A stretch of 64,000 nucleotides of DNA from Promethearchaeota archaeon (GTDB lineage Archaea; Asgardarchaeota; Lokiarchaeia; Sigyniarchaeales; SOKP01): assembly GCA_019058245.1 (NCBI GenBank), contig JAHPZJ010000010.1:64001-128000 (forward strand), in the 5' to 3' direction. Both the position numbers and the translations under genes were made by a program. Positions 32,406 to 58,003 of the stretch are shown here, in pieces. Each line of letters opens with the position of its first letter. The stretch's first letter is position 1. The notes beneath the pieces were generated by a model. The model had not been told where the DNA came from, made no database searches, and saw only the letters and a list, made by a program, of their open reading frames with translations.

Positions 32406-32545
32406 TGGCGCGGCTAGCGGGATTTGTCCTATAAAGAATAAAATTCTTTCCAATTGAACCCGCGTCGCAGGAGTGACAGTCCCGAATGCTTTCGATTAAG
32501 TAAACAGAAGTGTAATACTTAAAGACCGGGCTACACTATAGCCGC
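32406..32545 (-). tRNA. tRNA-Asp(GTC) with two introns (D-loop 32491..32522; T-loop 32424..32453), CCA encoded
   Basis: Acceptor GCGGCTA/TAGCCGC+G+CCA; anticodon arm CGGGA-CTGTCAC-TCCTG; T arm GCGGG-TTCAAAT-CCCGC after removing inserts; both inserts form BHB motifs. Confidence 0.93.
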
Positions 32546-32719
32546 AAAAAATTATAGGTATTGAATTAAAGGAATAAATGAATATATAAAAATTTTATTT
32601 TGCTTATTATTCAATACTTTTAATAGAAAGATTTATATTGTTTAAAGTTGATGTAGATTATATAAAATATTTAGGTATAACAATATAATATATTTGAATT
32701 AGGAACAGATTTATTAATT

Positions 32720-33157
32720 ATGCTTAATTCAAAGGGCTTTAGTTCTGTAATCCATGATTTAGAGAATTATAATGAAGAATTTATTGCAGTTTTTGATAAG
32801 ATCATTAAGTTTTTTGTAAAAATATTCAAGATTGCAGAAGAATTACAAGAAGAAATTGTAGAATATGACGATTTATTTCAAATTATTGTTTCGGATATAA
32901 ATTTTAATTTCTGGTTAAGTATTTCTAATGGTTCAATTGTATACAAAAAGGGAATAAACAGAAACGCATCATTAAGAATCATATTTACTAAGGATCTCTT
33001 AGTGAGAATTTTAAAACGTGAGATCTCTGGAACTGATGCTTTTATGAAAGGATTAATTAAGGCTGATGGAGATCTTTCTCAAGGTTTAAGATTTACAAAA
33101 TTATTTCGATTATTCTTGAAATATTTAAATAATGGATATATAAAACAAAATACCTAA
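32720..33157 (+). CDS. SCP2 sterol/lipid-binding domain protein
   Basis: EISGTDAFMKGLIKADGDL. Confidence 0.85.
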   Translation: MLNSKGFSSVIHDLENYNEEFIAVFDKIIKFFVKIFKIAEELQEEIVEYDDLFQIIVSDINFNFWLSISNGSIVYKKGINRNASLRIIFTKDLLVRILKREISGTDAFMKGLIKADGDLSQGLRFTKLFRLFLKYLNNGYIKQNT

Positions 33158-33286
33158 ATTATCATCTATTTATCATTAATTAGATTTAAATCATCAGTAA
33201 AATATTCGCTATCTTAATTCAATAAAATTTTTTAGAAATAATAGATAGTGAAATGTAACTTGAAATTTTATTTTATGTGTTTTATA

Positions 33287-33361
33287 GGGCTTGTAATCTA
33301 GTCTGGATAGGGTGCCCGGCTTCGGACTGGGATGTCGCAGGTTCGAATCCTGCCAGGCCCA
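33287..33361 (+). tRNA. tRNA-Arg(TCG)
   Basis: GGGCTTG/CAGGCCC acceptor; CCCGG-CTTCGGA-CTGGG anticodon arm; GCAGG-TTCGAAT-CCTGC; A20 in D-loop. Confidence 0.92.
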
Positions 33362-33607
33362 TTTTACTTTGTTAAGAAAAAAAACAATTAATCATTTTTG
33401 ATAAGAAATTAATCGATGAAAAATTATTATTCCTTTGAGGTATCAATTAAATTATTCATTTGAGTTTTTCATTAATTTTTACTGTTTAGATTTTAGTGTA
33501 AAATAAGATTTAAATATGCAAAGCCTACTAAATATGTATAAAAAAAAATATATATTTTTAAATCCGAGGGGGGAAAAATACCGGAGCTTCAGAAAAAGAC
33601 ACCAGAA

Positions 33608-34459
33608 ATGGAAAGATTTGAGAATGAAACAGGAAAAAGGGCTATATGGCGTGGAAGTATAACAGAGAGTTTTAAAAAATGGCAAAATGGAGAGGAGGAT
33701 TTCGAAGCAGATAAAGAAAGAATATCCTTGTATGTATCTAAGAATATAAAAGATGAGTGGTTAAATTTTGCTAGTAATAATGATTATTCTACCTTGTCTA
33801 AATTAATTAGAGAAGCTTTAAAGTTTTTTATTAAATATAGATCAAAAATCATAGTAAAAGATAAAAATTTAGACATCGATCTTTTATCAAGTCTATCCCA
33901 TGATTTGAAAGAACCTCTAACTTCAATTAAAGGTTATTTACAACTAATAATTGAATCACATGGAAATAAAGTTGAAGATAAAGTGATATCAATAATAAAT
34001 AATGTTCTAGGACAATGTACAATTCTTGAAAATAAGATTATTGAATATTTAGAGAAATTTGAATATGCAAAAGAAGAGCAAATTGATAGATTCATGGAAT
34101 ATGATATTCTATTAATTGAAGACGATGCTGAAACTGTGAGCTTATTAACAAGTTACTTTAAATCATTAGGGATCTCTTGTCAAGGCGTTTTAAGTGGTTT
34201 TAGAGGACTTAAAGAACTTAAGAGACATATTCCAAAACTAATATTACTTGATATCATTTTACCCGATATTAATGGCTATGAGGTTGTAAAAAGAATTAGA
34301 ACTAATAATAAGTTAAAAGAAATACCAGTATTTTTTTTAACCGCAATTCCACATGTTGAAGTTGAAAAGAAAATACAAGATTTGGGGGTAACAGGCACAA
34401 TTTTAAAACCTTTTAATTTATCTGATTTCGATGAAATCCAAGAATATTTAGATAGTTGA
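33608..34459 (+). CDS. response regulator with RHH-like and HisKA-like domains
   Basis: RISLYV...LSKLIREAL (RHH), SHDLKEPLTSIKGY (H-box), ILLIEDD..LLDIILPDINGYE..FLTA..KPF (REC); may start at ATA 33578. Confidence 0.88.
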   Translation: MERFENETGKRAIWRGSITESFKKWQNGEEDFEADKERISLYVSKNIKDEWLNFASNNDYSTLSKLIREALKFFIKYRSKIIVKDKNLDIDLLSSLSHDLKEPLTSIKGYLQLIIESHGNKVEDKVISIINNVLGQCTILENKIIEYLEKFEYAKEEQIDRFMEYDILLIEDDAETVSLLTSYFKSLGISCQGVLSGFRGLKELKRHIPKLILLDIILPDINGYEVVKRIRTNNKLKEIPVFFLTAIPHVEVEKKIQDLGVTGTILKPFNLSDFDEIQEYLDS

Positions 34460-34690
34460 TAATTCTTAAAGAATATTCTTGCTTTGACATGAAGTAAAAA
34501 ATTTAATTCTCTTTTTCTCATATAAATTTTCAAAAATTAAGAAATAAATGTCGATTAAAGGAGATTTCTTAGTTTTGGATTTTGTTATCAAAAAATGTAA
34601 TCGTGAATAAAAGAATATTTAAATAAGCAATACGTGGTTATATTATTAACACAAAAGATAATTTTTAGCACAAAAAAGTGTTGTAGTTGA

Positions 34691-35509
34691 ATGATAACCA
34701 TTAATGAAAATTACCCAGAATTATTAGACGATAGCCAGATCTTGCAATTACGAGGATTTTGCTTCTCAGAAGCAAATATTAACGGAGAGATCAAGATTAT
34801 TTTCCAAAAAGGCATTGGTATTACACTTACAAAAAAGATTATTGATTTATATAAAAATATTATATTCAAAAAAAGGCAAGGTTATATTAAAGATACAATA
34901 GGGAATCTTACTATATATATGCAATTCTTTGACTATAAGGAAAATAATAAGATGGTCCTTACCTACATTGATAAAATAGAGAATGATATGAATTACAATG
35001 AGTTATATCAACTTTCGTTAAGATTATACAATTGTATGAAAGCTAATAAAGCAAGAACGGAAATAGCGCATTTTTGTGAAAGAATTATTGAAATTCCTAA
35101 AGCAAGAGGAATAGTTGGAATTTTTGTTATTGATAAAGCGGGATTCTTATATTTTTCAAAAATTAATAAAAATCGACCGAAAATGGCAGATAATAATTTC
35201 CAAATTGCTGGATTTATCTCAGCCATATTGATTTATTCACAAGATTTCATTGCTAGAGAAGAATACGGAGAAAAGCTTGAAGATATTGACTTAGGAGGTT
35301 ATCATATGTTCTTAAAAACTAAAAATAATCTAATATTTGCTTATATTATCGATACTGATAACCATACGGGTAATCTAAAAAGATATATGCAATTGGTAAT
35401 GGAAGAATTTATAGATAAATATTATTTTTCTCACGTGGTTAAATTTAACGGAGATTTATCCCCATTCCATATTTTTGAACAAGTGATTGACCAATATTTC
35501 GAAATATGA
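34691..35509 (+). CDS. longin-like domain protein
   Basis: IFVIDKAGFLYF...IAGFISAI...F...Y...GDLSPF..F pattern typical of Asgard longin-like domains. Confidence 0.65.
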   Translation: MITINENYPELLDDSQILQLRGFCFSEANINGEIKIIFQKGIGITLTKKIIDLYKNIIFKKRQGYIKDTIGNLTIYMQFFDYKENNKMVLTYIDKIENDMNYNELYQLSLRLYNCMKANKARTEIAHFCERIIEIPKARGIVGIFVIDKAGFLYFSKINKNRPKMADNNFQIAGFISAILIYSQDFIAREEYGEKLEDIDLGGYHMFLKTKNNLIFAYIIDTDNHTGNLKRYMQLVMEEFIDKYYFSHVVKFNGDLSPFHIFEQVIDQYFEI

Positions 35510-35718
35510 ATATTAAAATTTTTGTTCAATAATAGTTTTTATTTGATAATATCACAATCTTTTTAATAAATTATCTAAATACTTTTATTTGATCAAGATT
35601 TCAAGTTAAAACAACGAGTTATATCCAAAATTATTAAATGAAAAACCCATAAATAATATCATAAAGTTTATCATAAAACTTATTAAATTTATTAATACAA
35701 AATATTATATATAAAATA

Positions 35719-36072
35719 ATGACAGCAACACTTCAACTTGACCTTGTCCTCGACAGTCTAATTAAAACATTTGGAGCTAAGGTCTATTTTATTATAATTA
35801 CATCTGAAAATGGTGCTGTAATTAAATCATATATCAATGAAGAATTCAATAAGTCCTCAATTGGGTTAAATATGTCACAATTATATGAATTAGCAGAAGA
35901 AATTACTTCTGATATTGGAGTTCATTCTCCAGATTTCAATGTAATTCATTCAGATAATTTTTATATATTATCTATTAAAATACTCGATAAAATAGTTACA
36001 GTTCTTACTGAAGATCAAATAGATTTTTCGTCTATTTTTGAGATTATAAATAAGTGTATAGTAACAAACTAA
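35719..36072 (+). CDS. roadblock/LC7-like protein
   Basis: 117 aa; helix, IIITSENGAVIKS, helix, three-strand topology. Confidence 0.65.
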   Translation: MTATLQLDLVLDSLIKTFGAKVYFIIITSENGAVIKSYINEEFNKSSIGLNMSQLYELAEEITSDIGVHSPDFNVIHSDNFYILSIKILDKIVTVLTEDQIDFSSIFEIINKCIVTN

Positions 36073-36202
36073 ATAAGACGACTTCATATGAGAAAGGATT
36101 AGCTATAAAAAACAAAAAGCTAAACATTTATAAAATCTTTAAACTAATAACTAGTGAATTCAATTATAGTAATATCTTTATAAGAAATTCGTGTGAATTA
36201 AA

Positions 36203-36688
36203 GTGAAATATGAAAAAAATCAATATTCAGAAAGATTTTCAATTTGTGCCTTAATTATTGCTGGAGCATTTTTATACTGGGGAATTAATGAATTTATCCA
36301 TTGGGGAGATGGTTCGGAGTGGTGGGGATTTATATTGACTGGAATTGGAATAGCAATCATAATCAGTCAAATATTTACAATAGCTAATAGAAGCAAACTG
36401 AGGAATGTGGTTTTATCAGAGTTTCAAGAGAATCCAGAAGCTACAATCGATGATATTAGTAAAAGTACAGGAATTTCAGCTAAAGATATTCAAGCAATAA
36501 TCTTAGATTTAAAGGCCTCAGGTCAATTACGAGGAAAATTTAACAAAATAACTGGCCAAATTACACATTTTTCAATTCTTGAAAAAGAAAGCCCACCAGA
36601 ACAACAAGCAAAATATTGTTCAAATTGTGGAACACTTACGAAAAATGAGGTTGCTAAATTTTGTTCTTATTGTGGAGCAGAAATGTAA
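36203..36688 (+). CDS. membrane protein with winged-helix and zinc-ribbon domains
   Basis: 2 TM, TIDDISKSTGIS..DI HTH, YCSNCG...FCSYCG. Confidence 0.8.
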   Translation: MKYEKNQYSERFSICALIIAGAFLYWGINEFIHWGDGSEWWGFILTGIGIAIIISQIFTIANRSKLRNVVLSEFQENPEATIDDISKSTGISAKDIQAIILDLKASGQLRGKFNKITGQITHFSILEKESPPEQQAKYCSNCGTLTKNEVAKFCSYCGAEM

Positions 36689-36802
36689 TTAATCATTCTC
36701 CATTTATTTTTGTATTGGATAATTTTGATTCTATATACTATTAGTTCCTATTATTCATTTTACTCTTTAATTATAGATTTAAAAAAAGAAAAAGTTAAAT
36801 AA

Positions 36803-38005
36803 TTATTTTTTAGTTTCTTTTAAGAAAAATGAGATTATTACAGCAATTACCAAAAAAACAGCTTGAATTAATAAAGCAGGCCAATAATCACCGTTTTTTG
36901 TAACATTTTCAAAACTAAGAATAAATAAAATCCCTCCAATTTGCCCTATCATCATTAACATTCCATTAGAACTTGCTTCTGGTACTGGTTTTGTAATATC
37001 TACTGCATATTCAAGGCCTACTGGTCCTGCTGAAAGCAAACCTAAACCTAAAAGAAATCCAAACGTATTTAACATTATGCGGTCAGATGTAAAGGTAATT
37101 ATGAATAGAGAAATTGTTGCTATTATAAGTGAAGATATCAACAGAGGTTTACGCTTTTTATATTTATCTGATAAGATAGACATTACAATACACCCCCCAA
37201 TCCCCCCTAATAACATTAAAGCACCTAATATTCCTGCAAAATTAGGATTATAACCTCGAGGTTCTACAATTCCTTCGATATATGTGGTTACTGTATTGAA
37301 AATACCAAGCCCTAAGAAAAAAAGAATAAGCAGAATGATAAACTGCTTATTCATAAATAACTTCTTCAACCCTTCAGATATTAAGACTTTCTCTTCCATA
37401 ATATCTTTTGTGGGTGGCGTTGGTGGTTTATCTTTAACAAATACAATAAAAATAACACTAATAATTAAAGATAAAATACCATATGTTAATAACATTGGGA
37501 GAAGGTCATTTGCTGGTGTTAGGATAGGAGTAATAAACAGCCCTAAAGCAATACCTATAAATTGTGAAATTAAAGCAATTCCGGTAGCTGTTGTTCTTTC
37601 ATCATCAGGAAACCAGTTTGCTGATAATTTTGTAATAGCATTAAGAATAAAAGGTTGTCCTATTCCAATTCCAATTTGGAATATTAGTACTAAAGTATAA
37701 TCATCTAATGCAACAAATCTTAATAATCCGAAAATCCCCGCGATTATTGCTCCTATTCCAGCTCCAATTTTAAAACCATATTTATCAATAATCCACGCTG
37801 ATAAAAATGCTATTGGAATATATACAATCATAAAACTCATTGCTAATAAATCTATTAAAAGAGCATCAACCCCATAGTAAGTTACAGCAACGCTTCTTAC
37901 TGGTGCAAAACTTATCCATAACATTTGTAGTATAATATTTTCTAGCATAAACAGTAAAAGAACAATCCAGCGGTATCGATAAACTTGAATCATTATTTCA
38001 TTCAT
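36803..38005 (-). CDS. MFS transporter (FLVCR-like)
   Basis: YRYRW, WISFAP, KLSANWFP..ERTTAT; about 12 TM. Confidence 0.9.
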   Translation of the reverse strand: MNEIMIQVYRYRWIVLLLFMLENIILQMLWISFAPVRSVAVTYYGVDALLIDLLAMSFMIVYIPIAFLSAWIIDKYGFKIGAGIGAIIAGIFGLLRFVALDDYTLVLIFQIGIGIGQPFILNAITKLSANWFPDDERTTATGIALISQFIGIALGLFITPILTPANDLLPMLLTYGILSLIISVIFIVFVKDKPPTPPTKDIMEEKVLISEGLKKLFMNKQFIILLILFFLGLGIFNTVTTYIEGIVEPRGYNPNFAGILGALMLLGGIGGCIVMSILSDKYKKRKPLLISSLIIATISLFIITFTSDRIMLNTFGFLLGLGLLSAGPVGLEYAVDITKPVPEASSNGMLMMIGQIGGILFILSFENVTKNGDYWPALLIQAVFLVIAVIISFFLKETKK

Positions 38006-38162
38006 TAAGTTAACACTTTTATTGTTTGATAATTAATTTTAATTAATTAAATCAATTTAGACTTTAACAAATATAAAATTTTAATTTTTAATTAGAAAAT
38101 TTGAAAGTATAAATTTATCCCAAATTTTTTAAATTGTATTTAAAAGATATAAGTGATATATT

Positions 38163-39188
38163 TTGACAAATAAATTTACTGTTGGAGTATTTGGAGCTGG
38201 TAGAATTGGAAAGATACATATTGAAAATCTATTACGTAAAATGCCTGATGTTAATTTGAAAATTGTGGTTGACATTAATATTGATGAAAAATTAAGAGAA
38301 TGGGCTGAAGAAAAAAGAGTTCCAAAACTCACCAATGATCAATTTGAAATTTTAAATGATCCTGCCATTGAAATAGTAGTAATTTGTTCACCTACGGATA
38401 CTCATACTAAAATTATTCAGGAAGCTGCCAAGATGAATAAACACATTTTTTGTGAAAAACCAATTGATTCAGACATAAAGAAGATTAGAAAAACTCTTTC
38501 AGTTGTTAAAGAAAAAAATGTAAAACTCATGATGGGATATAATCGACGTTTTGATCGTAATTTCATGAGATGCCATGAGTCAGTCACCTCTGGTCAAATC
38601 GGTGAACCTCAAATTGTTAAAATAACTTCGCGAGATCCAGCCCCTCCTCCCATCTCATATATAAAAGGTTCGGGAGGTATGTTTTTTGATATGACTATAC
38701 ATGATTGGGATATGGCAAGATACCAAGTTGGAAGTGAAGTGGAAGAAATCTATGCAACTGGAGGTGTACTTATCGATCCCGAAATTGGGAAAGCCGGAGA
38801 TATTGATACCGCTGTAGCTGTGTTGAAATTTGAAAATGGAGCAATGGGAATAATTGATAATACTCGTCAAGCAGTCTATGGATATGATCAACGTGTTGAA
38901 ATATTTGGATCCAAGGGATGTGTTGTAGCGGATAATGAAGCCACTAACACAGTCCGTATTTATACTGCTGATTGTACTAGTATCGATAAAATCCCTTATT
39001 TTTTCATGGATAGATATATAGAATCATACTCAGCTGAACTGAAATATTTCTTTGATTGCTTAGGTAAAAATTTGGAGCCTAAACCTAATGGAGAAGACGG
39101 ATTAAAAAATGTGCTAGTAGCTTTAGCTGCTCAGAAATCATATAACGAAAATCGTCCTGTAAAGATTTCAGAAGTAGAAAACTATTAA
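38163..39188 (+). CDS. iolG: inositol 2-dehydrogenase (Gfo/Idh/MocA)
   Basis: GAGRIG, CSPTDTH, FCEKP, NRRFD, ITSRDP, DMTIHD, YGYDQRVE. Confidence 0.9.
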   Translation: MTNKFTVGVFGAGRIGKIHIENLLRKMPDVNLKIVVDINIDEKLREWAEEKRVPKLTNDQFEILNDPAIEIVVICSPTDTHTKIIQEAAKMNKHIFCEKPIDSDIKKIRKTLSVVKEKNVKLMMGYNRRFDRNFMRCHESVTSGQIGEPQIVKITSRDPAPPPISYIKGSGGMFFDMTIHDWDMARYQVGSEVEEIYATGGVLIDPEIGKAGDIDTAVAVLKFENGAMGIIDNTRQAVYGYDQRVEIFGSKGCVVADNEATNTVRIYTADCTSIDKIPYFFMDRYIESYSAELKYFFDCLGKNLEPKPNGEDGLKNVLVALAAQKSYNENRPVKISEVENY

Positions 39189-39778
39189 TGTATCAAGTTA
39201 TAATGATTAATATAAAATCAAAAAGTCAACTAATTATGTCTTATGATTTAACTGCTTTTAAAGTATTGATAAAGAAACTCTTTCCACCAAAGGAATGCGT
39301 GTTTACTGTGGATACTGATGGTGACGGGAATGTAGATTCATTACAAATAAAATTCATTAATTTACTTCTGCCTTTTGTAATTCCAAAAGAAATTCAAATT
39401 GGAGATTTTAATTTGAATGATTTTAATCCTGAAGATCTTGATTTTTCTAAATATGTAAAATTTTATCTAGATAATGTTGAATTAAATTTTTCAAAAGAAA
39501 GTCTTAATTTAGATACAATAAAGAGCCGCATTTTAATTTATCACAAAGGAGATTCGTTTAATTTAAATGATATTATAGAAGGTAAATTTAGTGGCAGAAT
39601 TATTAACTTAAATGATACAATCAGTATTTTAATAAAAATAGATAAGGAATCTTTGAAGAAATTTACCGAAGGTGCTCATTATTTTAAAATTGAAAGTGAA
39701 TTGATATCTAATCTATTGATTAATTTTGAATTGAATGAAACCAATATGAATATTAGATTCAATCCAAATGATGCTTAA
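39188..39778 (+). CDS. hypothetical protein
   Basis: 196-aa ORF abutting iolG; contains DTDGDGNVD. Confidence 0.75.
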   Translation: MYQVIMINIKSKSQLIMSYDLTAFKVLIKKLFPPKECVFTVDTDGDGNVDSLQIKFINLLLPFVIPKEIQIGDFNLNDFNPEDLDFSKYVKFYLDNVELNFSKESLNLDTIKSRILIYHKGDSFNLNDIIEGKFSGRIINLNDTISILIKIDKESLKKFTEGAHYFKIESELISNLLINFELNETNMNIRFNPNDA

Positions 39779-39895
39779 TATATTATTATAAATTACTTAT
39801 TAAGACCTGTCCCCTAACTTAAATTTCATAAAATTCTTTAAGAAATAAATGGGGTTTTTATTTCTATTTTTAAATTAATTCAAGAAGGTGTTATT

Positions 39896-40405
39896 ATGGC
39901 CATTACAGAAGCTAAGAAAAATATAGATATTAGTATCGCCAGTGTTCAATTTATTTGTCCGGTCTGTAAAACTAAAAAAACTCTTGATATACCTAAATCT
40001 GTTATAGAAGAGGCAAAACAATTGACTACAATGTCAATAGCACGTGGATTGGTATGTAATCACCAATTTCAAGCTTATGTAGATAAAAATTATCAGGTTC
40101 GAGGATATCAAAAAGTAGATTTTGAATTTGAAAATACAGTTCATCAAGAAGAAGTTTTAGATTCCAACAATACCAAACAAGATGATAGTGAACTTATTGA
40201 AAATTTAATACTTGAAGGTAATTATGTTGAATATAATCCACTTAAAACCAAAATAAAAATAGGTAATAACATAAAGAATAAAGAAATCACTTCTCAAAAG
40301 AAAAAAATGACCCTCAAAGAAATATATGATGAATTTTGGGAATTAATAGATGATAATAATGAAGAATTTAAGGTCTTCCTTAGAAATGATTTGAGAAGAA
40401 ATTAA
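39896..40405 (+). CDS. hypothetical Zn-binding protein
   Basis: CPVC ... CNHQFQAYVDKNY.VRGYQKVD. Confidence 0.78.
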   Translation: MAITEAKKNIDISIASVQFICPVCKTKKTLDIPKSVIEEAKQLTTMSIARGLVCNHQFQAYVDKNYQVRGYQKVDFEFENTVHQEEVLDSNNTKQDDSELIENLILEGNYVEYNPLKTKIKIGNNIKNKEITSQKKKMTLKEIYDEFWELIDDNNEEFKVFLRNDLRRN

Positions 40406-40498
40406 AGGTTAATAGTATAAAAAACTATTTTATATAATTAGAGAAAAGCATTTGAATAAAATCTGTTTTTATAGAACTATTATGAAAAACAATCATAA

Positions 40499-40631
40499 TG
40501 CCAAGGGGGAGATTTGAACTCCCGATACCTAGATCTTCAGTTTCACCATTATCAGTAATTCTGATGATTCTAGTGCGTTCTTACCCGACATCAGGGAAAT
40601 TCTAATGTTCACCGGGCTACGCCACCTTGGC
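40499..40631 (-). tRNA. tRNA-Phe(GAA) with two introns (D-loop about 40582..40610; position 30/31 at 40542..40569)
   Basis: Acceptor GCCAAGG/CCTTGGC+A; CTAGA-CTGAAGA-TCTAG anticodon arm after excision; GGGAG-TTCAAAT-CTCCC. Confidence 0.92.
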
Positions 40632-40801
40632 TAGATTATGAATTTTTACTTTATAAAACGTTTAAGTTTTTAAAATATCAAAATTCGTAATTTAGAAAGG
40701 GAAAAATATCATATAAATTTTTTTCAAAAGAATCTTATTTAAATCAAAATTAATCAAAAAACATAATTAATTTCATTACTAACGGGAGTTTGATCTTTTT
40801 T

Positions 40802-41830
40802 TTATTTGGTAAGGTTTGTAATAATGGCTCTACCCACAAATTTTCCTTTTTTCATTTCCTCAAATACTTCATTAATTTCTGAAAGATTAGCAGTTCTCCC
40901 GACATGAGTTTTAACCTTGCCTTCTACTGCTATTTGGACTAATTCTCTCATATCTTCTACAGTACCAGTTAGGGATCCGATTATTTGTAAGTCTCTTATT
41001 ATTACTTCAAAAGGAGTTACTGATATTGTTCCCTCATCGAATGGGGGTATACCTACTCCAATTAGTGTTCCTCCAACTCTGAGTAATTTTATTCCAAGAT
41101 TATAAGCCGAAATATTTGCTGCAAATACTATACTTACTTGAACGCCCCCTAACTTTTTTTCAACGAACTTCTCAGCTTCATTAACATCTATTGCATGATC
41201 AGCACCGAGGTTCTTAACGATCTCTAATTTTTCAGATCCTTTATCAATTCCAATGATTTTATATCCAAAATTTTTTGCGATCTGTACAGCATAATGACCA
41301 AGTCCACCAGCAGCCCCAATGATGGCAATATATTTATCAGAAGGAATTTTGAGGCTCTTAAGTTTTTTGATTGCTCTATACGCTGTTAAACCCCCACATG
41401 CTAGAGAAACTTCAGTATCACTTAGTTCATCCGGGATTTTTACCAAAGATTGAGCCCACACGGAAATATATTCACTAAATATTCCGAACAAAGGTTTTCT
41501 TTCTGGACAATACATAGCTTTTCCTGAGAGACAATACTCACAGGTTCCACACCAGTATCCTAATGTTCCACCAAGACCCAATATAACTCTATCACCTACT
41601 TCTATATCAGATTCAGAATTAGGACCCAATTCCTCAACTATGCCAATTCCTTCATGTCCCAAGGGACGTGGAGTCGGCAATTTCATCCACTCTCCCATCA
41701 CAACATGTAAGTCTGTATGACAAACACCTGCGGTTGTAATTTTTACTAGGGCTTCTCCAGCTTCGGGAGAGGGTTTAGGAACATCAATAATACTTACTTT
41801 TCCAATTTCTTGAAGTATTGCAGTTCGCAT
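40802..41830 (-). CDS. zinc-dependent alcohol dehydrogenase
   Basis: GVCHTDLH, GHEG.G, CGTCEYC...C, GAAGGLG. Confidence 0.93.
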   Translation of the reverse strand: MRTAILQEIGKVSIIDVPKPSPEAGEALVKITTAGVCHTDLHVVMGEWMKLPTPRPLGHEGIGIVEELGPNSESDIEVGDRVILGLGGTLGYWCGTCEYCLSGKAMYCPERKPLFGIFSEYISVWAQSLVKIPDELSDTEVSLACGGLTAYRAIKKLKSLKIPSDKYIAIIGAAGGLGHYAVQIAKNFGYKIIGIDKGSEKLEIVKNLGADHAIDVNEAEKFVEKKLGGVQVSIVFAANISAYNLGIKLLRVGGTLIGVGIPPFDEGTISVTPFEVIIRDLQIIGSLTGTVEDMRELVQIAVEGKVKTHVGRTANLSEINEVFEEMKKGKFVGRAIITNLTK

Positions 41831-46693: not shown

Positions 46694-46722
46694 ATAAAAT
46701 AATTTCAAAAAATTGAAGGATA

Positions 46723-48249: not shown

Positions 48250-48272
48250 ATAGAAAAGAAGTATTACTAGAA

Positions 48273-48698: not shown

Positions 48699-48756
48699 AA
48701 TTATTTATTTAAACTTATTTTAAATTTAACATATTTTATAATTTCTGGAGAATTTC

Positions 48757-49650
48757 ATGCTTGAAAAATTAAAAAAAACTTTTTCTTCATTTGTTAATAA
48801 AACTTTAACAGAAAAAAAATTAGAGAATACAATCAATGATTTAAAACTGCTTCTTTTAAGTAATGATGTGGCTGTTGATACGGCTGATGAAATATGTAAA
48901 AAGATTACTGAATCTTTTGAAGGAGAACAATTAGGTCGTTTGAGTTCAACGCGAAAAATATTATTTGAGACTTTAAAAGAGACCATAACTAAGATTCTAA
49001 CACCAGAAGAAGAAGTTAATTTACTTGAAGAAATTAAAAAAAAAAAAGGAAAACCTTATGTAATTGTTTTTCTTGGTGTCAATGGTACAGGAAAAACTAC
49101 TACTATGGCTAAAATCGCGAATCTTTTAAAAAATAATGGTTTTTCAATTGTAGCAGCAGCAGCAGATACATTCCGAGCAGCTGCAATTGAACAGTTAAAA
49201 TATCATATGGATAAGGTAGGAATAAGAGTTATAAAACATGAATATAAATCAGATCCTGCTTCCGTCGCCTATGATGCTATTGAACACGCAAAAGCAAAAA
49301 ATATTGATGTTGTTTTAGTGGATACAGCCGGTAGACAAGTGACAGACAAAAACTTAATGATCGAAATTCAAAAAATATGCAGAATTGCCAAACCTGATTT
49401 AATTCTTTTTATAGGTGATAGTTTAGCAGGAAACGATGCTCTTTTTCAAGCAAAAGAGTTCAATAAACATGTAGGGATTGATGCCAATATTTTGACTAAA
49501 CTTGATGCTGATGCTAAAGGTGGCGCTGCCTTATCAATTTCTTTTGAAACCAAGAAGCCAATAATTTTTTGTGGTGTGGGACAAGGTTATAATGATTTAA
49601 TTCCATTTGATCATGAGATTTTTATATCAAATATATTAGAGCAAGAATAA
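48757..49650 (+). CDS. ftsY: SRP receptor FtsY
   Basis: GVNGTGKTTT, DTFRAAA, DTAGR, TKLDADAKGG, GVGQ. Confidence 0.97.
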   Translation: MLEKLKKTFSSFVNKTLTEKKLENTINDLKLLLLSNDVAVDTADEICKKITESFEGEQLGRLSSTRKILFETLKETITKILTPEEEVNLLEEIKKKKGKPYVIVFLGVNGTGKTTTMAKIANLLKNNGFSIVAAAADTFRAAAIEQLKYHMDKVGIRVIKHEYKSDPASVAYDAIEHAKAKNIDVVLVDTAGRQVTDKNLMIEIQKICRIAKPDLILFIGDSLAGNDALFQAKEFNKHVGIDANILTKLDADAKGGAALSISFETKKPIIFCGVGQGYNDLIPFDHEIFISNILEQE

Positions 49651-49711
49651 AATGAAATAGAGCTTTGATCTCAAGAGATAAATTTTTATCTGACAGTACT
49701 TTATTTTAAGT

Positions 49712-49960
49712 GTGTCAAATTACCCGAAATATGATAAATATAATATAGCTAAGAAGAAGAAAAAGGCAGGTTATTATAATAGAATCACAACTTTTTTCCA
49801 AAATTCAAGGAGAATATTAAAAGTAGCATCTAAGCCAAGTAGAAAAGATTACTTCTTAGTTTTCAAAATATGTATCATAGGAATTGCACTTTTAGGTGTT
49901 GTTTCATATGTAATTCAATTAATCTTTTCTCTTCTTAACATTACTAAATGGGGACAATAA
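49712..49960 (+). CDS. secE: preprotein translocase SecE/Sec61-gamma
   Basis: RILKVASKPSR.DY followed by a single C-terminal TM. Confidence 0.9.
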   Translation: MSNYPKYDKYNIAKKKKKAGYYNRITTFFQNSRRILKVASKPSRKDYFLVFKICIIGIALLGVVSYVIQLIFSLLNITKWGQ

Positions 49961-49980
49961 CACTTAAGAGATAAATTCAT

Positions 49981-51165
49981 TTAGAAAAAATGGATTAATA
50001 TTTGCTCGGGAATAGTTAATTCTTCTTCTTTATTTTTACATGCAATAAATTTAATTTTCATATTTATTGAGAGAGATAGAAGTCTTTTTGTTAAAATACC
50101 ATCAATAATTAAAAACTTAGTATCTTTAAAGTCTCTAATTTTTTCAAATAGTTCACCCACAGGGATATCAAACAACTTATCAAGATTCTTATTAAATCCA
50201 ATAGCAAACCCCGCTTCAATATTCTTAGTTGATTCGATTATAATTCCATCATCCTTAATTTTGAGTTTTTTTAAGATTTTTTGAAAATTATCGGTTGATT
50301 CAACAGCTAATTTCTTATTTATTCCATTTTCTTTTGATATTTTCAGTGATTTTGCTGGCTTTTTATTTTGTAAAGCTTTTATCATTTGTTTTCTGGTTAA
50401 TTCTTCAACTTCAAATCCATCAGGAGCTCTAGTAACAGAATTAATCTTAGTCACTTGTAAAAGTTCATTAAGGATAATTGTTCCCCCCCTATCTCCATCT
50501 ACAAAAGCTGTAACTGATTTCTTTTGCTTAGCTAATTTGATTACAGATTTGGGTACATGAGTTCCTTGAACTGCTATAGTATTTTTAATACCAATTCTTA
50601 ATAAATTAAGAACATCAGCTCGACCCTCAACAATAATCAATTCTGGATTTGATTCCACTTCTGGACCTGCTGGAAGATTTTCAGGACCCCAAGAAATTAT
50701 TTCTCCAAGTTTAATATCTGTATCGATTTGTTCTTCAATTTCACTCTGATCTAATGATTTTTGATCCCATTCTTTTAAAAGTTCGGCGGCTCTTTCAATA
50801 ATTTTTTGCCTTTTAGTTTCTCTTACATCTCGAATTTCAATTAGTTTAATTTCAGCTTCGCAAGGACCAACTCGAGAAACCGTCTCTACAGTAGCGGCTA
50901 AAAGAGCAGTCTCCCTTCTGGTTAATGATGATGGAATGTTAATGGTACCTTCTGAAATTCCTTCTTTAGATTCATTTTCCACTTCAATTCTTCCAATACG
51001 TCCTGATTTCTGTAGATCTCTTAAATCTAGATCTAAAAGTAATCCTTCTGTTTGTCCAAATATTGCCCCGACAATATCTGACTTCTCTACAACTCCTTTA
51101 ATTTTGAATTTGACTTCAATAATATATTTTGTTGTAAATTCATTTTGGCTTGTAATTTTGACCAC
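49981..51165 (-). CDS. dnaG: archaeal DnaG primase-like protein
   Basis: GVVEKSDIVGAIFGQTEGL, GRIGRI, IVEGRADVLNL, FVDGDRGG. Confidence 0.96.
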   Translation of the reverse strand: MVKITSQNEFTTKYIIEVKFKIKGVVEKSDIVGAIFGQTEGLLLDLDLRDLQKSGRIGRIEVENESKEGISEGTINIPSSLTRRETALLAATVETVSRVGPCEAEIKLIEIRDVRETKRQKIIERAAELLKEWDQKSLDQSEIEEQIDTDIKLGEIISWGPENLPAGPEVESNPELIIVEGRADVLNLLRIGIKNTIAVQGTHVPKSVIKLAKQKKSVTAFVDGDRGGTIILNELLQVTKINSVTRAPDGFEVEELTRKQMIKALQNKKPAKSLKISKENGINKKLAVESTDNFQKILKKLKIKDDGIIIESTKNIEAGFAIGFNKNLDKLFDIPVGELFEKIRDFKDTKFLIIDGILTKRLLSLSINMKIKFIACKNKEEELTIPEQILIHFF

Positions 51166-51712
51166 TTCCTTTTCTATTTTAATAATTTTTTATTTGTTCA
51201 ATAAAACAGAACTTAAAGGAAGTCTTATGAAATAGAAGTAGAATCTAGCAAAATGGAATAGAAATCATTCCATTATAGTTTTATCTAATTGAATTCTATA
51301 TTATTTTATCATTTAAGATATTATTATAAATTATTATTAAACTTGAATTATAAAACTACTTCTTATTTATAATTATATTTCTTACTTGTAAGTTTGATTT
51401 ACTGAACTCTTTATTTTTTTATTTTTTTTTTATTAACTACTTAATCGTTTTAATTAATTGGTGAAAATTTTTAATTCTTTTATTTGGAAATTTAATAATA
51501 TAAATGTAATATTATGATTGGTTATTATTTTTATAATATAATAAATAATTTTGATAACATTTACTATTATATCTACTAAAAATTATTTAACCAATTTATT
51601 TTTTTGCTAATTGGAAAAAAATTATCGTGATTTGTCGATCTATTTAGTTAGTTTTTTATGTTATTTTTATTTTTGATATTATAAATTATAGGTTTCAAAC
51701 CAAGTTTAAAAT

Positions 51713-52738
51713 ATGGAGAAAATCATAGTTTTAGGAGGAAAAGGAGGAGTCGGGAAGAGTTCTATTAGTGCTGCTACAGCTGTGTTACTTTCAGATCTAC
51801 TTCCTGAGAAAAAAATTTTACTTATTTCTTTTGATATGGCCCATAACCTTAGTGATTTATTCAAATTAAAAATTGGAGATAAACTAACATTATTAAATAA
51901 AAATTTATGGGGTATTGAACCCGATGCGGATAGTTATGCTAAGAAATATACAAAGGATTTAATAGAAAAAATGAAAACCCTTACAAGACAAATGCCACTT
52001 GTAGGAATGCTACCTCAAATTGAAAAATTTATAGATAAAACATTTACTGCTGATTCCATTCCATTGGCTTTAAAAAATGCTATGTTTTTTCAACAAATAC
52101 TAGATGCTGAGGATATTAATACTCAAAATATTCAATTTGATATTATAATTGCAGATTTTCCCCCTACAGCAAACATGATTACTCTTTTTGAAATACCTGA
52201 AGATCAAGTAAAAGTAGTGCTCAAATACTCATTAAATTTCTATAATTCTATTAAAGGTGCTATTCGAAATATCTCAAAAATGTGGAGAAATATAGTTAAA
52301 CCTTTTGATGATCAAGAGGAAAGAAGAGAGTTAGGGAAAGATATTTTCAACATGATTGTTGAATTAGAAAAGCGTGGAGAACGAATCTCAGACCTAATTC
52401 ACAATATTGGATCACTTAGACTAGTAACTATAGCTGAAAAACCAAGTTTTGAAGAAATCAAAAGAGCTAGAGATTTAACACAGCGTTATATTAAATTAGA
52501 GGGTATCCATATAAATATGATTATCCCGGAACCAAAAAAATGTGATTTTTGCGAAAAAATTAGAAATCTTCAACTTAGCTATACTACCGCAATTAAAAAA
52601 GAATTTAAAAAATTAAAAATCTGGCAATCAGAAAAACTTAAAGAAGAACCGATAGGATTAGATGGTTTGAGAGCTCTTGCTTATGAAGTTTATGGAGATA
52701 ATATTAGTGCTGAGGAGATTTTAAAGCCTAAGATGTAA
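51713..52738 (+). CDS. ArsA/GET3-family ATPase
   Basis: GGKGGVGKSS, D.AHNLSD, DFPPT, CDFC, EP.G. Confidence 0.9.
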   Translation: MEKIIVLGGKGGVGKSSISAATAVLLSDLLPEKKILLISFDMAHNLSDLFKLKIGDKLTLLNKNLWGIEPDADSYAKKYTKDLIEKMKTLTRQMPLVGMLPQIEKFIDKTFTADSIPLALKNAMFFQQILDAEDINTQNIQFDIIIADFPPTANMITLFEIPEDQVKVVLKYSLNFYNSIKGAIRNISKMWRNIVKPFDDQEERRELGKDIFNMIVELEKRGERISDLIHNIGSLRLVTIAEKPSFEEIKRARDLTQRYIKLEGIHINMIIPEPKKCDFCEKIRNLQLSYTTAIKKEFKKLKIWQSEKLKEEPIGLDGLRALAYEVYGDNISAEEILKPKM

Positions 52739-52884
52739 TTTCCGACAAAGTGAGTAATTTTTTATCTTTAGTATGGATTAAGAGCTTTTATTTTTAACTT
52801 AAAATTAGTTTTCTATTTCATGTAAATCTTTTTGAAATAGAATATATTTTGTAAAACTAAAAAGTTAAGATTATTAAGCGAAAA

Positions 52885-53343
52885 GTGAGGTTAATTATGA
52901 AAATAACTGATGATATGAAGAATAATATAAAGGAACATTATGGATATACAGATGAGGAATTAGAAACTTTATTTGAAAATCCTAGAAATATTGAGGCAAT
53001 TTCAAAATCATTGGGATTATTAGATCGAACTATCGTAATTGAAGTCGTTTGCTCTCATGGTTGTACTGCGCAACATAAAATAGGAGATAAATTTTATTTT
53101 AATGGAATAGGACAATTACTTACAAGGTATTGTCCTAAAAAAATTTGTATATATGCTTTAAGTGCATTAGACCATTTAATCTTTGCTGCAAATGAATTGT
53201 ATTATGCGGGTGTTGATTCTAATGAAATGAGGTTTAAACGTGCTGACTGTAAAGCCGATGTTGGTTTAAAGTGTGGAGGATTTGGTAAAATAGTAATGGA
53301 AATTAAAGTTGAAGATAGAAAAAAAATTCAAATTGGAAAATAA
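52885..53343 (+). CDS. Cys-rich hypothetical protein (TIGR04076-like)
   Basis: GC...HKIGDKF, ICIYA, C.ADVG..CGG.G. Confidence 0.7.
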   Translation: MRLIMKITDDMKNNIKEHYGYTDEELETLFENPRNIEAISKSLGLLDRTIVIEVVCSHGCTAQHKIGDKFYFNGIGQLLTRYCPKKICIYALSALDHLIFAANELYYAGVDSNEMRFKRADCKADVGLKCGGFGKIVMEIKVEDRKKIQIGK

Positions 53344-53516
53344 ATAATTTTAAGGATTCTAGAGAAATAAAAACCTAAAATTTATTTTTTTTATGATAAG
53401 TTATGGAATAGTTTTTTTATTATTTTAGAAATAAGGGGAAGGATATAAATTTTTTAAGATCCTGATCTATTTTTTGTTGTATTGCTTGATTCTTAATTAA
53501 GAAATTCATTAATATT

Positions 53517-54671
53517 TTACTTATTCATCTTTCTTTTTCTTGCAAGTTCCATAGATTTATTTAATATACCATTAAAAAGCTCTACATTTTTAAATAAATT
53601 GATTTCCTCACCACAGCTCATCCTTAGTAGTTCTAATACAGATAAAACCTTGTATTTTTTCATTTGAATTCGATAATCAAATGCAAAAGTAGAAATACAC
53701 CCGGGGCAAGTATTAATTATATATTTGGTATTTGCTTTCTTAAATTCTCTAAATCTTTTCGTTCGGATTTTTTCCATAAGGTTTCGATTCAATAAACTAA
53801 GAGACAAACCGCAACATAACGCATTCTCACGATTATGCTCTAATTCTATTATTTCACAACCAGTTAGTTCAACAATTTTTCGAGGATAATCCAATAACTC
53901 GGGGTATTTTTTTACAACACAAGAATCATGAAAAGCGACTTTGAGATTCAATTTATTTGTTATTTTTAAATCACCTGCTTCAATTGCTTTCACAATATAT
54001 TCCCAAATTGAAATTACCTCAAAATCATTAGAAATTCTTTTATATTCAGTTTTATAAGCTTCATAACATTCATTACAAAAAAGAATTAATCGTTTAGCTC
54101 CTAAGCTAGAAAATCTAGAATATAAATGATCTTCAAAGTCAATATTCGGAAGAGGCATACACGCTCTATGATAAACTTCACCACAACAAAAATCAATACC
54201 TCCTACAAGAGTCTTTCCTTCTAATAACCCTTCAAGTGTAGGATTTTTATATAGATATTGCATAAGATACGAAATTGCGCACCCCAATACAACCAGTTCT
54301 TCAGATTTCGAAGGTGATTTCCATTCTTCCAAATTCTTTGCTTCTTCAGGACTCATCATTACTTTTTCATAAAATTTATAAACATTTGGTTTATTAAATG
54401 GGAATATAAATTTACTTGAACTTCGAATTTTGCCATTTTCCTCTAATTCTTTTATTTTTGCTAATTTCAGTTCTTTAATTAAATATGATGGAGTTAAATC
54501 ATTAGGACAATTTAAATCGCAGGTTCCACAAATTGCACATTGGTCAACAATAAAACTCGATCCATTAATAAGATTCTCAATTTCTTCCATAGCTTGATCG
54601 ATATTCAAATCTATTATAGGACAGCTTTCTAAGCATACTCCACATCTTACACACTCATTTAAATCAAACAT
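53517..54671 (-). CDS. Fe-S oxidoreductase with CCG domains (HdrD/GlpC-like)
   Basis: Two CxxCxxCxxxCP motifs, FCCG, HDSC, LCCG, CPGC. Confidence 0.9.
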   Translation of the reverse strand: MFDLNECVRCGVCLESCPIIDLNIDQAMEEIENLINGSSFIVDQCAICGTCDLNCPNDLTPSYLIKELKLAKIKELEENGKIRSSSKFIFPFNKPNVYKFYEKVMMSPEEAKNLEEWKSPSKSEELVVLGCAISYLMQYLYKNPTLEGLLEGKTLVGGIDFCCGEVYHRACMPLPNIDFEDHLYSRFSSLGAKRLILFCNECYEAYKTEYKRISNDFEVISIWEYIVKAIEAGDLKITNKLNLKVAFHDSCVVKKYPELLDYPRKIVELTGCEIIELEHNRENALCCGLSLSLLNRNLMEKIRTKRFREFKKANTKYIINTCPGCISTFAFDYRIQMKKYKVLSVLELLRMSCGEEINLFKNVELFNGILNKSMELARKRKMNK

Positions 54672-54809
54672 AATTACTTATACTATTGATTTGGTATTAT
54701 CAGTATTTTTTATTAATAAAAATATTTGATAATTCTAATAATAAAACATTTTTAAATAAATTAAAGGTAATTTTGAAAGAATAGATGAAAAATAAAAAAT
54801 ATTGACTAT

Positions 54810-54909
54810 TTATGGCCCCTCAAAAAAAACAGTGGATGTAGTTATATTGTTCCTCGGTCAGTTTATCAATCTCAACGCCCTTTGATTGCAGTTTTAGGAA
54901 TCCTATCAT
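54810..54909 (-). pseudogene. decayed copy of the ahcY 3' end
   Basis: Translates MIGFLKLQSKGVEIDKLTEEQYNYIHCF versus AhcY C-terminus MVGFLKLQSMGVEIDKLTEEQYNYIHGF; 1-nt insertion in an A-run. Confidence 0.88.
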
Positions 54910-55152
54910 AAATACATAAGAAATATTCCAATTATTTTGGAGCGTTAAGTAAAAGAGCTCTATATTCGCCAGAACTCGAAAAAATGTTGGAAAAGATCAT
55001 TAGTAGTTCATTATAGGAGAAACTGAATCAGAGAAAAAAAGATATCTCTATTTTACTTGTACTATTCTATTTTTATGAATAAATCATTAGAAAAATCTTT
55101 TTATTATAGAAGAAGTTTGAATTCATAATCCTATAAATAAGGAATTATTAAA

Positions 55153-56598
55153 ATGGTACGTTATAAGTGGACTGTATTAATAATAACGACTATTGGAGTA
55201 TTTATGTCTTCTTTAGATGCAAGTATCGTAAATATTGCGATACCTTCTCTTTCAAGAGATTTAAAAACATCATTTGAAGTTGTCCAATGGATTCCGATAA
55301 TATATTTGTTAGTTCAAGCAGTTACGCTCATCGGTTTCGGGAGATTATCGGACTTAAAAGGAAGAAAATTATTTTTTTTGTTTGGAATCTTTCTTTTTAC
55401 ATTTGCAAGTTTTTTTTCTACATTTGCAGCCTCTGGAATTATATTAGTAATTTTTAGAGCTATCCAAGGTCTTGGTAGTTCCTTTATATCAGCGAATGCT
55501 CCTTCTATGATAACAGACATTTTTCCTCGAGAAGAGACTGGTAAAGCGTTAGGTATTAATGTTGCAACTATATATTTAGGATTAATTATTGGACCCGTTT
55601 TAGGAGGAATAATTGTCCAATTTTCCACTTGGAGGCTTATATTCTTTATAAACGTTCCAATAGGATTTATACTCATAATTGTGGGATGGTTTAAGCTAAG
55701 AAAAGTAAATCCGGGAATAAAAGAAGAGAGATTTGATATTTGGGGGACACTACTCTTTATGTCATTCTTAGTTACTTTGCTTTTAGCATTGACCATCGCT
55801 AACCTAGTTGGATGGGGTTCTATTCAAGTTATTTTATTATTGATTATTTCAACATCAAGTATTATCTTATTCATTTATATAGAAAGTAAAGCAAAATATC
55901 CATTATTTAAACTAAGTTTATTTAGAAGAAATAGAGTGTTTTCATTTGCTAATTTTGCCGCTTTATTCAATTATACAGCAATATCTGGGGTTAGTTTTTT
56001 ACTTTCAATATATCTTCAATCAATATTAGGAATCTCGCCTGCTATTACGGCTTTATTTTTATTACCGACAACAATTACAATGGCCAGTATAGCCCCATTA
56101 AGTGGGAGATTTTCAGATAAATGGGGAACTAGGATTTTAACGACGTTAGGTATGGTTATTATGGCGATTGGATATGTCATTTTAAGTATATTTATAAGAT
56201 TTTTACCTATAATATATATTCTAATAACCCAATTTGTGGTTGGATTTGGGATTGGACTATTCTCTTCTCCGAATAATTCTGCTATCATGAATGCTGTAGA
56301 ACCAAAAGATCACGGGATTGCTGCTGGAACTCTTTCTACCATGCGTGTGGTTGGACAATCAATTAGCGTAGCATTATTAAGTGCAATATTAACTCTTTTC
56401 ATCCCTCTCTCCATTCTAAATCCAATATTATCAAATTCAACATTACTAACAGATCCTACTGCAAAACAAGAATTCATAATAGGTATGCAAATTTTATTAA
56501 TTGTTTCATCAATAATTTGCTTTATTGGGGCTTTCTTGTCATATATGAGAGGGAAAAAAGCTTTAAATGACAATATTGATTTTAAAAAAGCTATATAA
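55153..56598 (+). CDS. MFS drug efflux transporter, DHA2 (EmrB/QacA) type
   Basis: FM..LDASIVNIAIP, GRLSD..GRK, FRAIQGLG, GPVLGG, WR.IFFINVPIG. Confidence 0.94.
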   Translation: MVRYKWTVLIITTIGVFMSSLDASIVNIAIPSLSRDLKTSFEVVQWIPIIYLLVQAVTLIGFGRLSDLKGRKLFFLFGIFLFTFASFFSTFAASGIILVIFRAIQGLGSSFISANAPSMITDIFPREETGKALGINVATIYLGLIIGPVLGGIIVQFSTWRLIFFINVPIGFILIIVGWFKLRKVNPGIKEERFDIWGTLLFMSFLVTLLLALTIANLVGWGSIQVILLLIISTSSIILFIYIESKAKYPLFKLSLFRRNRVFSFANFAALFNYTAISGVSFLLSIYLQSILGISPAITALFLLPTTITMASIAPLSGRFSDKWGTRILTTLGMVIMAIGYVILSIFIRFLPIIYILITQFVVGFGIGLFSSPNNSAIMNAVEPKDHGIAAGTLSTMRVVGQSISVALLSAILTLFIPLSILNPILSNSTLLTDPTAKQEFIIGMQILLIVSSIICFIGAFLSYMRGKKALNDNIDFKKAI

Positions 56599-56702
56599 AT
56601 TCCAATTTAATACTCAAAATTAAAATATAATATTTCGGAAGCAGAATTTGAAATTGAAAAGATATTAAAAAAATAAAAAAAATTGCTTTCAAAAATGATT
56701 AT

Positions 56703-58003
56703 TCATGTCCCCTCAAGAAAACCGTGGATATAATTATATTGCTCTTCAGTTAGTTTATCAATCTCAACGCCCATGGATTGAAGTTTTAAAAAGCCCACCA
56801 TGTCATCTATCTCTACTGGAACATCTATCATTCCTGACTTTAATTTATCTTTATTTTTTACGATATACTCAGACATTAAAGATTGTAAGCCAAATGACAT
56901 ATCCATGACTTCAGCGGGATGCCCTTCAGAGAGCACTAAATTAGCCAAGCGTCCTTTTGCAAGTAAATATACTTTCTTACCATTAGGCATTAGCAGTTCT
57001 TCTACATTTGAACGAATAGGTTTTATCTCCTTTGCGTAATCGTAGAGCTCTTTAGTTGGAATTTATTGATTTAACACGAAATATGTGCAAAATTTTCAAT
57101 ATCAAAGTGCCCTAAATTACCCAAAATAACTCCCTCCTTCAATTTGTCGAACACTTCTTTTCTCGGAGCAATGACATGTTTACATCCTGTAGCAGTTAGA
57201 ATTATATCTGCGTCCTGTAAAGCTTTCTCAATAGGCATAACTTGATAACCTGAGAATTTAGCTTGGAGGGCCTTAATTGGATCAACTTCAGTTACAATTA
57301 CATTCGCACCAAGACCCCTTGCCCTCAAAGCCATCCCACTACTGCAATGTCCATATCCAGCAATAACTACATTCTTTCCAGCAAAAAGAACATGCATTCC
57401 ATAAATTGCAGAAACTATACCTTGACCTGTACCTAATTCATTATCAAATTGATTCTTACATCGAGCATCATTAACAGGAAATAGTGGCACTTTTAATACT
57501 CCTTGTTTATCCATTGCCCTGAATCTTTTAACTCCAGTGGTAGTTTCTTCCTGACACGCAAGAATGTTATCAGAATTTATAAGATTTTCATATTCTTGAT
57601 GAGCAGTGACTATCATATCACCGCCATCATCTATCAATATATTTGGTTTGGCGTCTAAACATTTCCTTATACACCAATAGAATTCTTCATCAGTATTACC
57701 ATGCCAAGCAAAGACATTAATTCCTTCCTTTATTAATGCTGCAGCTACATCATCCTGAGTTGATAAAGGGTTACTACCGCACAGATAGACTTCAGCACCA
57801 CCCGCTTTAAGAGTCAAAGCAAGATTACCCGTTTCTTTCGTTACATGTAAACAACCAGCTACTGTTATATCCTTTAGTGGTTTTTCTTTTTGAAATCTTT
57901 CACGAATCACCTTAGCAGTTACAGGCATTTTACTTTCTGCAATATACAGTGCTTCTTTTCCTTTTTCAGCTAGACTTTCATCAGCTACTTTATAATTGAC
58001 CAT
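56703..58003 (-). CDS. ahcY: S-adenosylhomocysteine hydrolase, two exons (58003..57095 + 57062..56703; 422 aa spliced)
   Basis: GCLHVTKET, SNPLSTQD, DDGGD, EETTTGV, K..FDN..GTG, GYG, ATG, GHFDIE|IP, GRLANL, GHPAEVMD.SF, LT.EQ..Y. Confidence 0.95.
57063..57094 (-). other. 32-nt putative BHB intron in ahcY mRNA
   Basis: ATTG-AA|A-ATTTTGCAC(ATATTTC)GTGTTAAAT-CAAT-AA|A; excision at the BHB cut sites restores the frame. Confidence 0.85.

What the first reader, a model, noticed from the sequence alone, without database searches (positions are those of the whole stretch)
32424..57094. One family of 28-32-nt hairpin introns shared by tRNA genes and an mRNA
Seen: five inserts in this window are 28-32 nt AT-rich hairpins closed by a 4-bp helix to the upstream exon. 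Four have the 3' bulge AA|A and the fifth probably TA|A. The ahcY and tRNA-Asp D-loop introns have the same 1+25+4+2 layout but different sequences. Inference: a lineage with active gain of short BHB introns spilling from tRNAs into mRNAs. Other apparently frameshifted genes in this genome may be spliced, which matters for annotation and for the evolution of endonuclease-type mRNA splicing (compare HAC1/XBP1).
Basis: inference. Interest (0 to 1): 0.75.

Follow-up and report, generated by a model that had tools for sequence, protein, structure and literature searches.

The report
tRNA-type mini-introns in Asgard mRNAs
In this Loki-type Asgard archaeon, 28-32-base hairpin introns of the kind cut out of tRNAs also interrupt the only S-adenosylhomocysteine hydrolase gene and several other protein genes, so their messenger RNAs very probably have to be spliced, which the papers I could search document for only one archaeal coding sequence.

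Summary
All five inserts are real: two in tRNA-Asp (32, 30 nt), two in tRNA-Phe (31, 28 nt) and one in ahcY (32 nt). One correction: the Phe D-loop intron is 31 nt with bulge AA|G, not TA|A. The ahcY insert is absent from 29 congeners; removing it restores their protein collinearly. It sits at the same site in seven assemblies (three genera) with a covarying hairpin, intact exons and no second ahcY copy. Comparison with half of a sister genome gave two more such introns here (cobO, a small GTPase) and five in the sister; earlier scan notes led to two shared ones that I confirmed. The cobO intron is in 20 genomes; an intron splits single-copy RNA polymerase subunit N in 10. Two EndA paralogs and RtcB are encoded. 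Best reading: EndA/RtcB splicing of many mRNAs in Promethearchaeia, inferred only, because no RNA run was available. Not supported: a sequence family spilling from tRNAs (no homology found) or a recent local gain of the ahcY intron. The papers searched show only cbf5 and one 5' UTR. This scan has already noted the phenomenon in many other Asgard genomes.

The parts
32406..32545 (-). tRNA-Asp(GTC) gene with two introns and encoded CCA; missed by ARAGORN and Rfam
   Evidence: exons match intronless congeners
32491..32522 (-). 32-nt D-loop intron of tRNA-Asp
   Evidence: boundary fixed; covarying copy in G024
32424..32453 (-). 30-nt T-loop intron of tRNA-Asp
   Evidence: other sequences at the same site in congeners
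40499..40631 (-). tRNA-Phe(GAA) gene with two introns
   Evidence: ARAGORN mis-called it Ser
40581..40611 (-). 31-nt D-loop intron of tRNA-Phe (bulges GG|U and AA|G)
   Evidence: related copy in G024
40542..40569 (-). 28-nt intron of tRNA-Phe at position 30/31
   Evidence: identical in G024
57095..58003 (-). ahcY exon 1 (303 codons, ends at GHFDIE)
   Evidence: Pfam AdoHcyase and AdoHcyase_NAD
57063..57094 (-). 32-nt BHB-type intron in the ahcY coding sequence; shifts the frame and carries a stop
56703..57062 (-). ahcY exon 2 (119 codons plus stop, begins IPTKE)

Best explanation
The five inserts are archaeal bulge-helix-bulge introns of the relaxed type: a 4-bp helix between the end of exon 1 and the end of the intron, two 3-nt bulges, and a 7-9-bp intron hairpin; the outer exon-exon helix is weak or absent at ahcY. 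The two-subunit splicing endonuclease EndA cuts after the second base of each bulge and RtcB joins the exons. The same route serves tRNAs and a set of mRNAs, so ahcY mRNA is spliced to give a 422-residue enzyme. Shown: position, boundaries, shape, covariation, intact single-copy exons, presence of the enzyme genes. Inferred: cutting and ligation of the mRNA. The tRNA and mRNA introns share a size and shape set by the enzyme, not a sequence. The ahcY intron arose once, and its patchy spread most likely reflects exchange of alleles by recombination (weakly supported).
For: 29 of 29 congener loci lack exactly these 32 nt and read GHFDIE-[IV]PTKE without a break. Same-site intron in G075, G087, G089, G108 and two metagenome contigs. 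97.8% of cells pair, 3 pairs change on both sides, versus 28-43% for slid registers. The two 30-nt versions contain an in-frame TAA. ahcY is single-copy in all five intron-bearing genomes, one 98% complete. Exon 2 stays open and synonymous codon changes outnumber replacements about 2-3.5 to 1. Three separate run assemblies repeat the insert. Further CDS introns: cobO in 20 genomes, 95.8% paired, 17 compensatory cells; rpo10 in 10 genomes, single-copy in four genomes 98-100% complete; small GTPase in 4; uppS, with a TAG in the G024 insert. Two EndA paralogs, the catalytic one closest to the crenarchaeal enzymes in the PDB, and RtcB.
Against: No spliced read was seen and no cleavage was tested. 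Folding energies are not exceptional. Several central helices have only 3 of 4 pairs (rpo10, GTPase, uppS). The ahcY site lacks a good outer helix. The covariation shuffles do not correct for kinship.
Confidence: 0.9

Rival explanations
1. The ribosome bypasses the insert or shifts frame (translational recoding), with no RNA splicing.
For: A hairpin and a stop codon follow the junction, as at known bypass sites (own knowledge). No RNA data exclude it.
Against: No matching take-off and landing codons keep the conserved DIEIPTK; a hop between the two ATT codons would delete two residues (sequence). Insert lengths at one site vary through all frames (cobO 29, 30, 31, 33 nt). The same geometry occurs in untranslated tRNAs.
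Confidence: 0.03
2. ahcY is a pseudogene, an assembly error, or a gene split into two polypeptides.
For: The genome is a 76%-complete MAG, and gene callers report two ORFs of 310 and 95 aa.
Against: The insert recurs in independent assemblies and genera. The 24 codons of exon 2 before its first ATG stay conserved as protein. No other copy was found. The essential genes rpo10 and uppS carry the same kind of insert in near-complete genomes.
Confidence: 0.03
3. The inserts are tiny mobile DNA elements or footprints excised at the DNA level, or one mobile family copied from tRNA introns into mRNAs.
For: A 5-bp direct repeat flanks the ahcY insert (sequence). Lengths are tightly 28-33 nt, and presence differs between sister species.
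Against: The cobO and tRNA-Phe inserts have unique boundaries without repeats. No sequence kinship among non-orthologous introns. The same negative result is reported for Asgard tRNA introns in bioRxiv 10.64898/2026.10.13.758758. Pairing with the exon is conserved, which points to RNA-level recognition.
Confidence: 0.04

Closest known systems
cbf5 pre-mRNA intron of Desulfurococcales and Sulfolobales (Watanabe 2002; Yoshinari 2006; Yokobori 2009, PMC2738675)
   Same: Short intron in a coding sequence, relaxed BHB motif, cut sites after the second bulge base, hetero-oligomeric EndA, patchy gain and loss.
   Different: One gene there, at least five confirmed here in one genome and at least eleven genes across two sister genomes, including rpo10 and uppS. 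Different phylum. cbf5 splicing is shown by cDNA; this is not.
Non-canonical tRNA introns of Asgard archaea (bioRxiv 10.64898/2026.10.13.758758; Valentin-Alvarado 2024 as cited there)
   Same: D-arm and T-arm introns missed by annotators, BHB boundaries, rapid turnover, no cross-gene sequence families, two EndA paralogs.
   Different: That text does not mention mRNA or cbf5, and its focal classes are Jordiarchaeia and Atabeyarchaeia. The four tRNA introns here are ordinary members of this kind.
HVO_1309 5' UTR intron of Haloferax volcanii (PMC7714728)
   Same: BHB intron in an mRNA, processed by EndA.
   Different: 46 nt, in an untranslated leader, does not break a reading frame; a single case.
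HAC1/XBP1 splicing (own knowledge)
   Same: Non-spliceosomal mRNA splicing that shifts a frame; metazoan XBP1 uses RtcB.
   Different: Cut by Ire1 at stem-loops and stress-regulated. No Ire1-type sites or regulation were tested here.

Membership tests
Archaeal BHB intron | 4-bp central helix between exon 1 and the intron 3' end, with 3-nt bulges on opposite strands | tested here: met
   4/4 pairs in all five window introns; invariant in 7 ahcY copies
Archaeal BHB intron | Homology-defined boundaries fall after the second base of each bulge | tested here: met
   Unique match for the Phe D-loop and consistent for the Asp D-loop; at ahcY the predicted site lies within a 5-nt ambiguous window
Archaeal BHB intron | Intron-side helix kept by covariation | tested here: met
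   ahcY; cobO
Archaeal BHB intron | Outer exon-exon helix (strict hBHBh') | tested here: inconclusive
   No good outer helix at ahcY by inspection; 0 pairs at cobO, 3 at the GTPase and uppS. The relaxed form is also described for cbf5.
Archaeal BHB intron | EndA able to cut non-canonical sites and an RNA ligase are encoded | tested here: met
   Two PF01974 genes, one with the Tyr/His/Lys motif, closest PDB hits 3p1z and 3ajv; RtcB present. Specificity is inferred.
Archaeal pre-mRNA intron (cbf5 type) | Removal restores a conserved, otherwise broken reading frame in a gene under selection | tested here: met
Archaeal pre-mRNA intron (cbf5 type) | Spliced mRNA seen, or cleavage by EndA in vitro | not testable with these tools
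   No RNA run was listed for the locus, so no reads could be laid
Transposable tRNA intron family (Thermoproteales type) | Near-identical intron sequences in different host genes | tested here: not met
   partial census of 15 tRNA and 8 mRNA introns

The most novel reading that the evidence does not exclude
EndA/RtcB splicing of coding sequences is routine in this Promethearchaeia family. Each genome carries roughly ten or more 28-34-nt introns in protein genes, essential ones included (RNA polymerase subunit N, uppS). They turn over between sister species, possibly by allele exchange, so translation depends on non-spliceosomal splicing in close relatives of eukaryotes.
Probability: 0.8. Interest if true: 0.8.

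Novelty: new variant of a known kind. Interest (0 to 1): 0.72.

Why it matters
The papers searched know BHB splicing of an archaeal coding sequence only from cbf5. Many such introns in housekeeping genes of an Asgard lineage would mean that a prokaryote without a nucleus must splice mRNAs before productive translation. That makes questions about intron load and the coupling of transcription and translation near the origin of eukaryotes testable. In practice, Asgard genes now annotated as split or pseudo (ahcY, cobO, rpo10, mutase) are probably intact, and marker genes and tRNAs are being miscounted.

Tried and rejected
RNA evidence: no RNA holder was listed for window 55100-59100. This is no evidence either way, and read laying could not be used. 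Reference-free BHB scans of the genome were swamped by operon junctions and chance hairpins; only homology-anchored hits were kept. One scan timed out. My first register for the Phe D-loop intron (29 nt, TA|A) was rejected. The first cobO structure string was one column off and was redone. Sequence kinship between tRNA and mRNA introns was not found. A co-conversion signal beside the ahcY intron among carriers was not significant (third-position identity 0.55 versus 0.50, 11% of shuffles). Both intron-discordant sister pairs lose identity around the site, but so do 3 of 8 intronless pairs, so recombination is only suggested. Pattern hits G067, G078, G102, G125, G147 and L310 are not ahcY. The rest of G024 could not be fetched, so the homology scan covers about 2.4 of 4.5 Mb and counts are lower bounds. 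The tRNA census is partial.

Full report
Setting. The window is contig C10:64001-128000 of a 3.09-Mb, 76%-complete genome with 29% GC. Records of related genomes that share the ahcY insert are titled Promethearchaeia or Promethearchaeota (one submitter wrote Hermodarchaeota). The closest intact protein is named adenosylhomocysteinase of a Promethearchaeota archaeon. So this is a Loki-type Asgard archaeon.

Observation. ARAGORN and Rfam find only two intronless tRNAs in the window. Reading the minus strand shows two more, each with two inserts, and a split ahcY. tRNA-Asp(GTC) has a 32-nt D-loop insert (32491-32522) and a 30-nt T-loop insert (32424-32453). tRNA-Phe(GAA) has a D-loop insert and a 28-nt insert at position 30/31 (40542-40569). 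ahcY has a 32-nt insert (57063-57094). Each forms a 4-bp helix with the last bases of exon 1, two 3-nt bulges and an inner hairpin. Intronless congeners fix the boundaries independently of the motif. The Asp D-loop boundary is as predicted. Folding energy alone is not striking.

ahcY. Of 57 of 61 relatives with a match, the 29 best congener loci all read GHFDIE-[IV]PTKE with no insert, and removing 32 nt makes this gene collinear with them. A gapped pattern over 154 genomes of the order found the same-site insert in G108 (same genus), G075, G087 and G089 (two other genera), and a metagenome scan added two contigs. The copies are homologous, 30 or 32 nt long. The central helix and the 3' AA|A bulge are invariant and the stem covaries: 97.8% of cells pair and three pairs change on both sides, against 28-43% in slid registers. 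The 30-nt versions keep the frame but contain TAA. Both exons are open in all carriers, and synonymous codon differences outnumber replacements in exon 2 as in exon 1. No second ahcY was found in the five carrier genomes, one of them 98% complete. Three separate run assemblies repeat the insert letter for letter. Assembly error and pseudogene are therefore excluded in practice.

Other mRNAs. I fetched 2.38 Mb of the sister genome G024 and compared both ways. In G000 this gave ahcY, cobO (C22:46679-46708, 30 nt with a stop, splitting the GRGKGKTT motif) and a small GTPase (C4:1366-1395, 30 nt with a stop; helix 3/4). In G024 it gave methylmalonyl-CoA mutase (31 nt), a ferredoxin-domain gene (29), an AIR-synthase-like gene (29), RNA polymerase subunit N (31) and a metallo-hydrolase (30). 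Leads from earlier scan notes were then checked. uppS has a 30-nt insert in the DGNRRW motif, shared with G024, where it contains TAG. A small zinc-ribbon gene on C1 has a 29-nt insert, also shared. An ABC ATPase and cdhA fit by motif and shape only. Across the family the cobO intron is in 20 genomes of four genera, 29-33 nt long, with 95.8% pairing and 17 compensatory cells; every unspliced form stops within a few codons. The rpo10 intron is in 10 congeners, and in four genomes 98-100% complete the only rpo10 is the split one. The GTPase intron is in four genomes.

Machinery. G000 and four relatives each encode two EndA paralogs. The C28 protein keeps the Tyr/His/Lys motif and is closest to PDB 3p1z and 3ajv, while the C20 protein lacks the His, as expected of a structural subunit (subunit roles from own knowledge). 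Two-subunit enzymes are among those reported to cut non-canonical introns (abstract of PMC5829648). RtcB is present. The mechanism is thus available; its action on these mRNAs is inferred. No RNA run was listed.

Family and origin. The tRNA and mRNA introns agree in size (28-33 nt) and shape but not in sequence. Only the orthologous Phe pair aligned clearly (z 7.5); the best mRNA-tRNA pair reached z 4.2 among 120 against shuffles that do not keep hairpins. This matches the published negative result for Asgard tRNA introns. Turnover is fast: the window's intronless tRNA-Arg(TCG) has two introns in G024, and G024's tRNA-Asp has a third. For ahcY, carriers are scattered on the tree of the gene's 5' part (6 changes for 6 carriers). 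In both discordant sister pairs, third-position identity falls from 0.84-0.93 to about 0.4-0.45 around the site. That fits allele exchange better than clean insertion or clean loss, but 3 of 8 intronless pairs show the same fall, so it is only suggestive.

Literature. cbf5 is the confirmed coding-sequence case; others were only predicted (PMC2738675). A 2020 study adds one 5' UTR intron in Haloferax and calls cbf5 the only other example (PMC7714728). A 2026 preprint covers Asgard tRNA introns and does not mention mRNA. Further searches found no report of Asgard mRNA BHB introns; the library lacks most subscription papers. Earlier notes of this scan report the same phenomenon in at least 78 genomes, including ahcY in other Asgard classes. 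I treat these as leads, not support.

Verdict. The four tRNA introns are ordinary non-canonical BHB introns. The ahcY intron is very probably a spliced mRNA intron (0.9) and one of many in this family. It is a new variant of a known kind; interest 0.72.

Noticed in passing
window 33287-33361 (+) versus G024 C7: tRNA-Arg(TCG) is intronless here but carries two 29-nt introns in sister genome G024, whose tRNA-Asp also has a third, 32-nt intron.
   Followed up: partly
L289:1512-1541 (G000 C22:46679-46708): cobO intron in the GRGKGKTT motif; 20 genomes, strong covariation, and the in-frame 30- and 33-nt versions all contain a stop.
   Followed up: yes
L319 (G024 C7:997405-997435) and L313-L322: 30-31-nt intron splitting single-copy RNA polymerase subunit N in 10 congeners; G000's copy is intact.
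   Followed up: yes
G000 C29:64591-64620 (-): In-frame 30-nt insert in the uppS DGNRRW motif, with no stop in G000 but TAG in G024. Such inserts are invisible to frameshift scans.
   Followed up: partly
L343 (G000 C4:1366-1395): 30-nt intron with a stop in a small GTPase gene just after WDIAGQ; also in G093, G025 and G066 (33 nt).
   Followed up: yes
G024 C15:3033-3063, C7:426890-426918, C7:314151-314179, C20 near 10793: Further candidate mRNA introns in mutase, ferredoxin-domain, AIR-synthase-like and metallo-hydrolase genes; not traced in other genomes.
   Followed up: partly
ahcY codons about -100 to +50 from the intron (window about 56900-57400): Third-position identity between sister alleles collapses in 5 of 10 pairs, which suggests frequent recombination in the 3' half of ahcY.
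   Followed up: partly
L349:1-120: A metagenome contig holds the 3' part of an ahcY whose upstream sequence is unrelated, breaking a few codons after this intron site; may be a chimera or another insertion.
   Followed up: no
G006, G008, G036: No ahcY was found in these 90-95% complete congeners with protein or Pfam queries.
   Followed up: no
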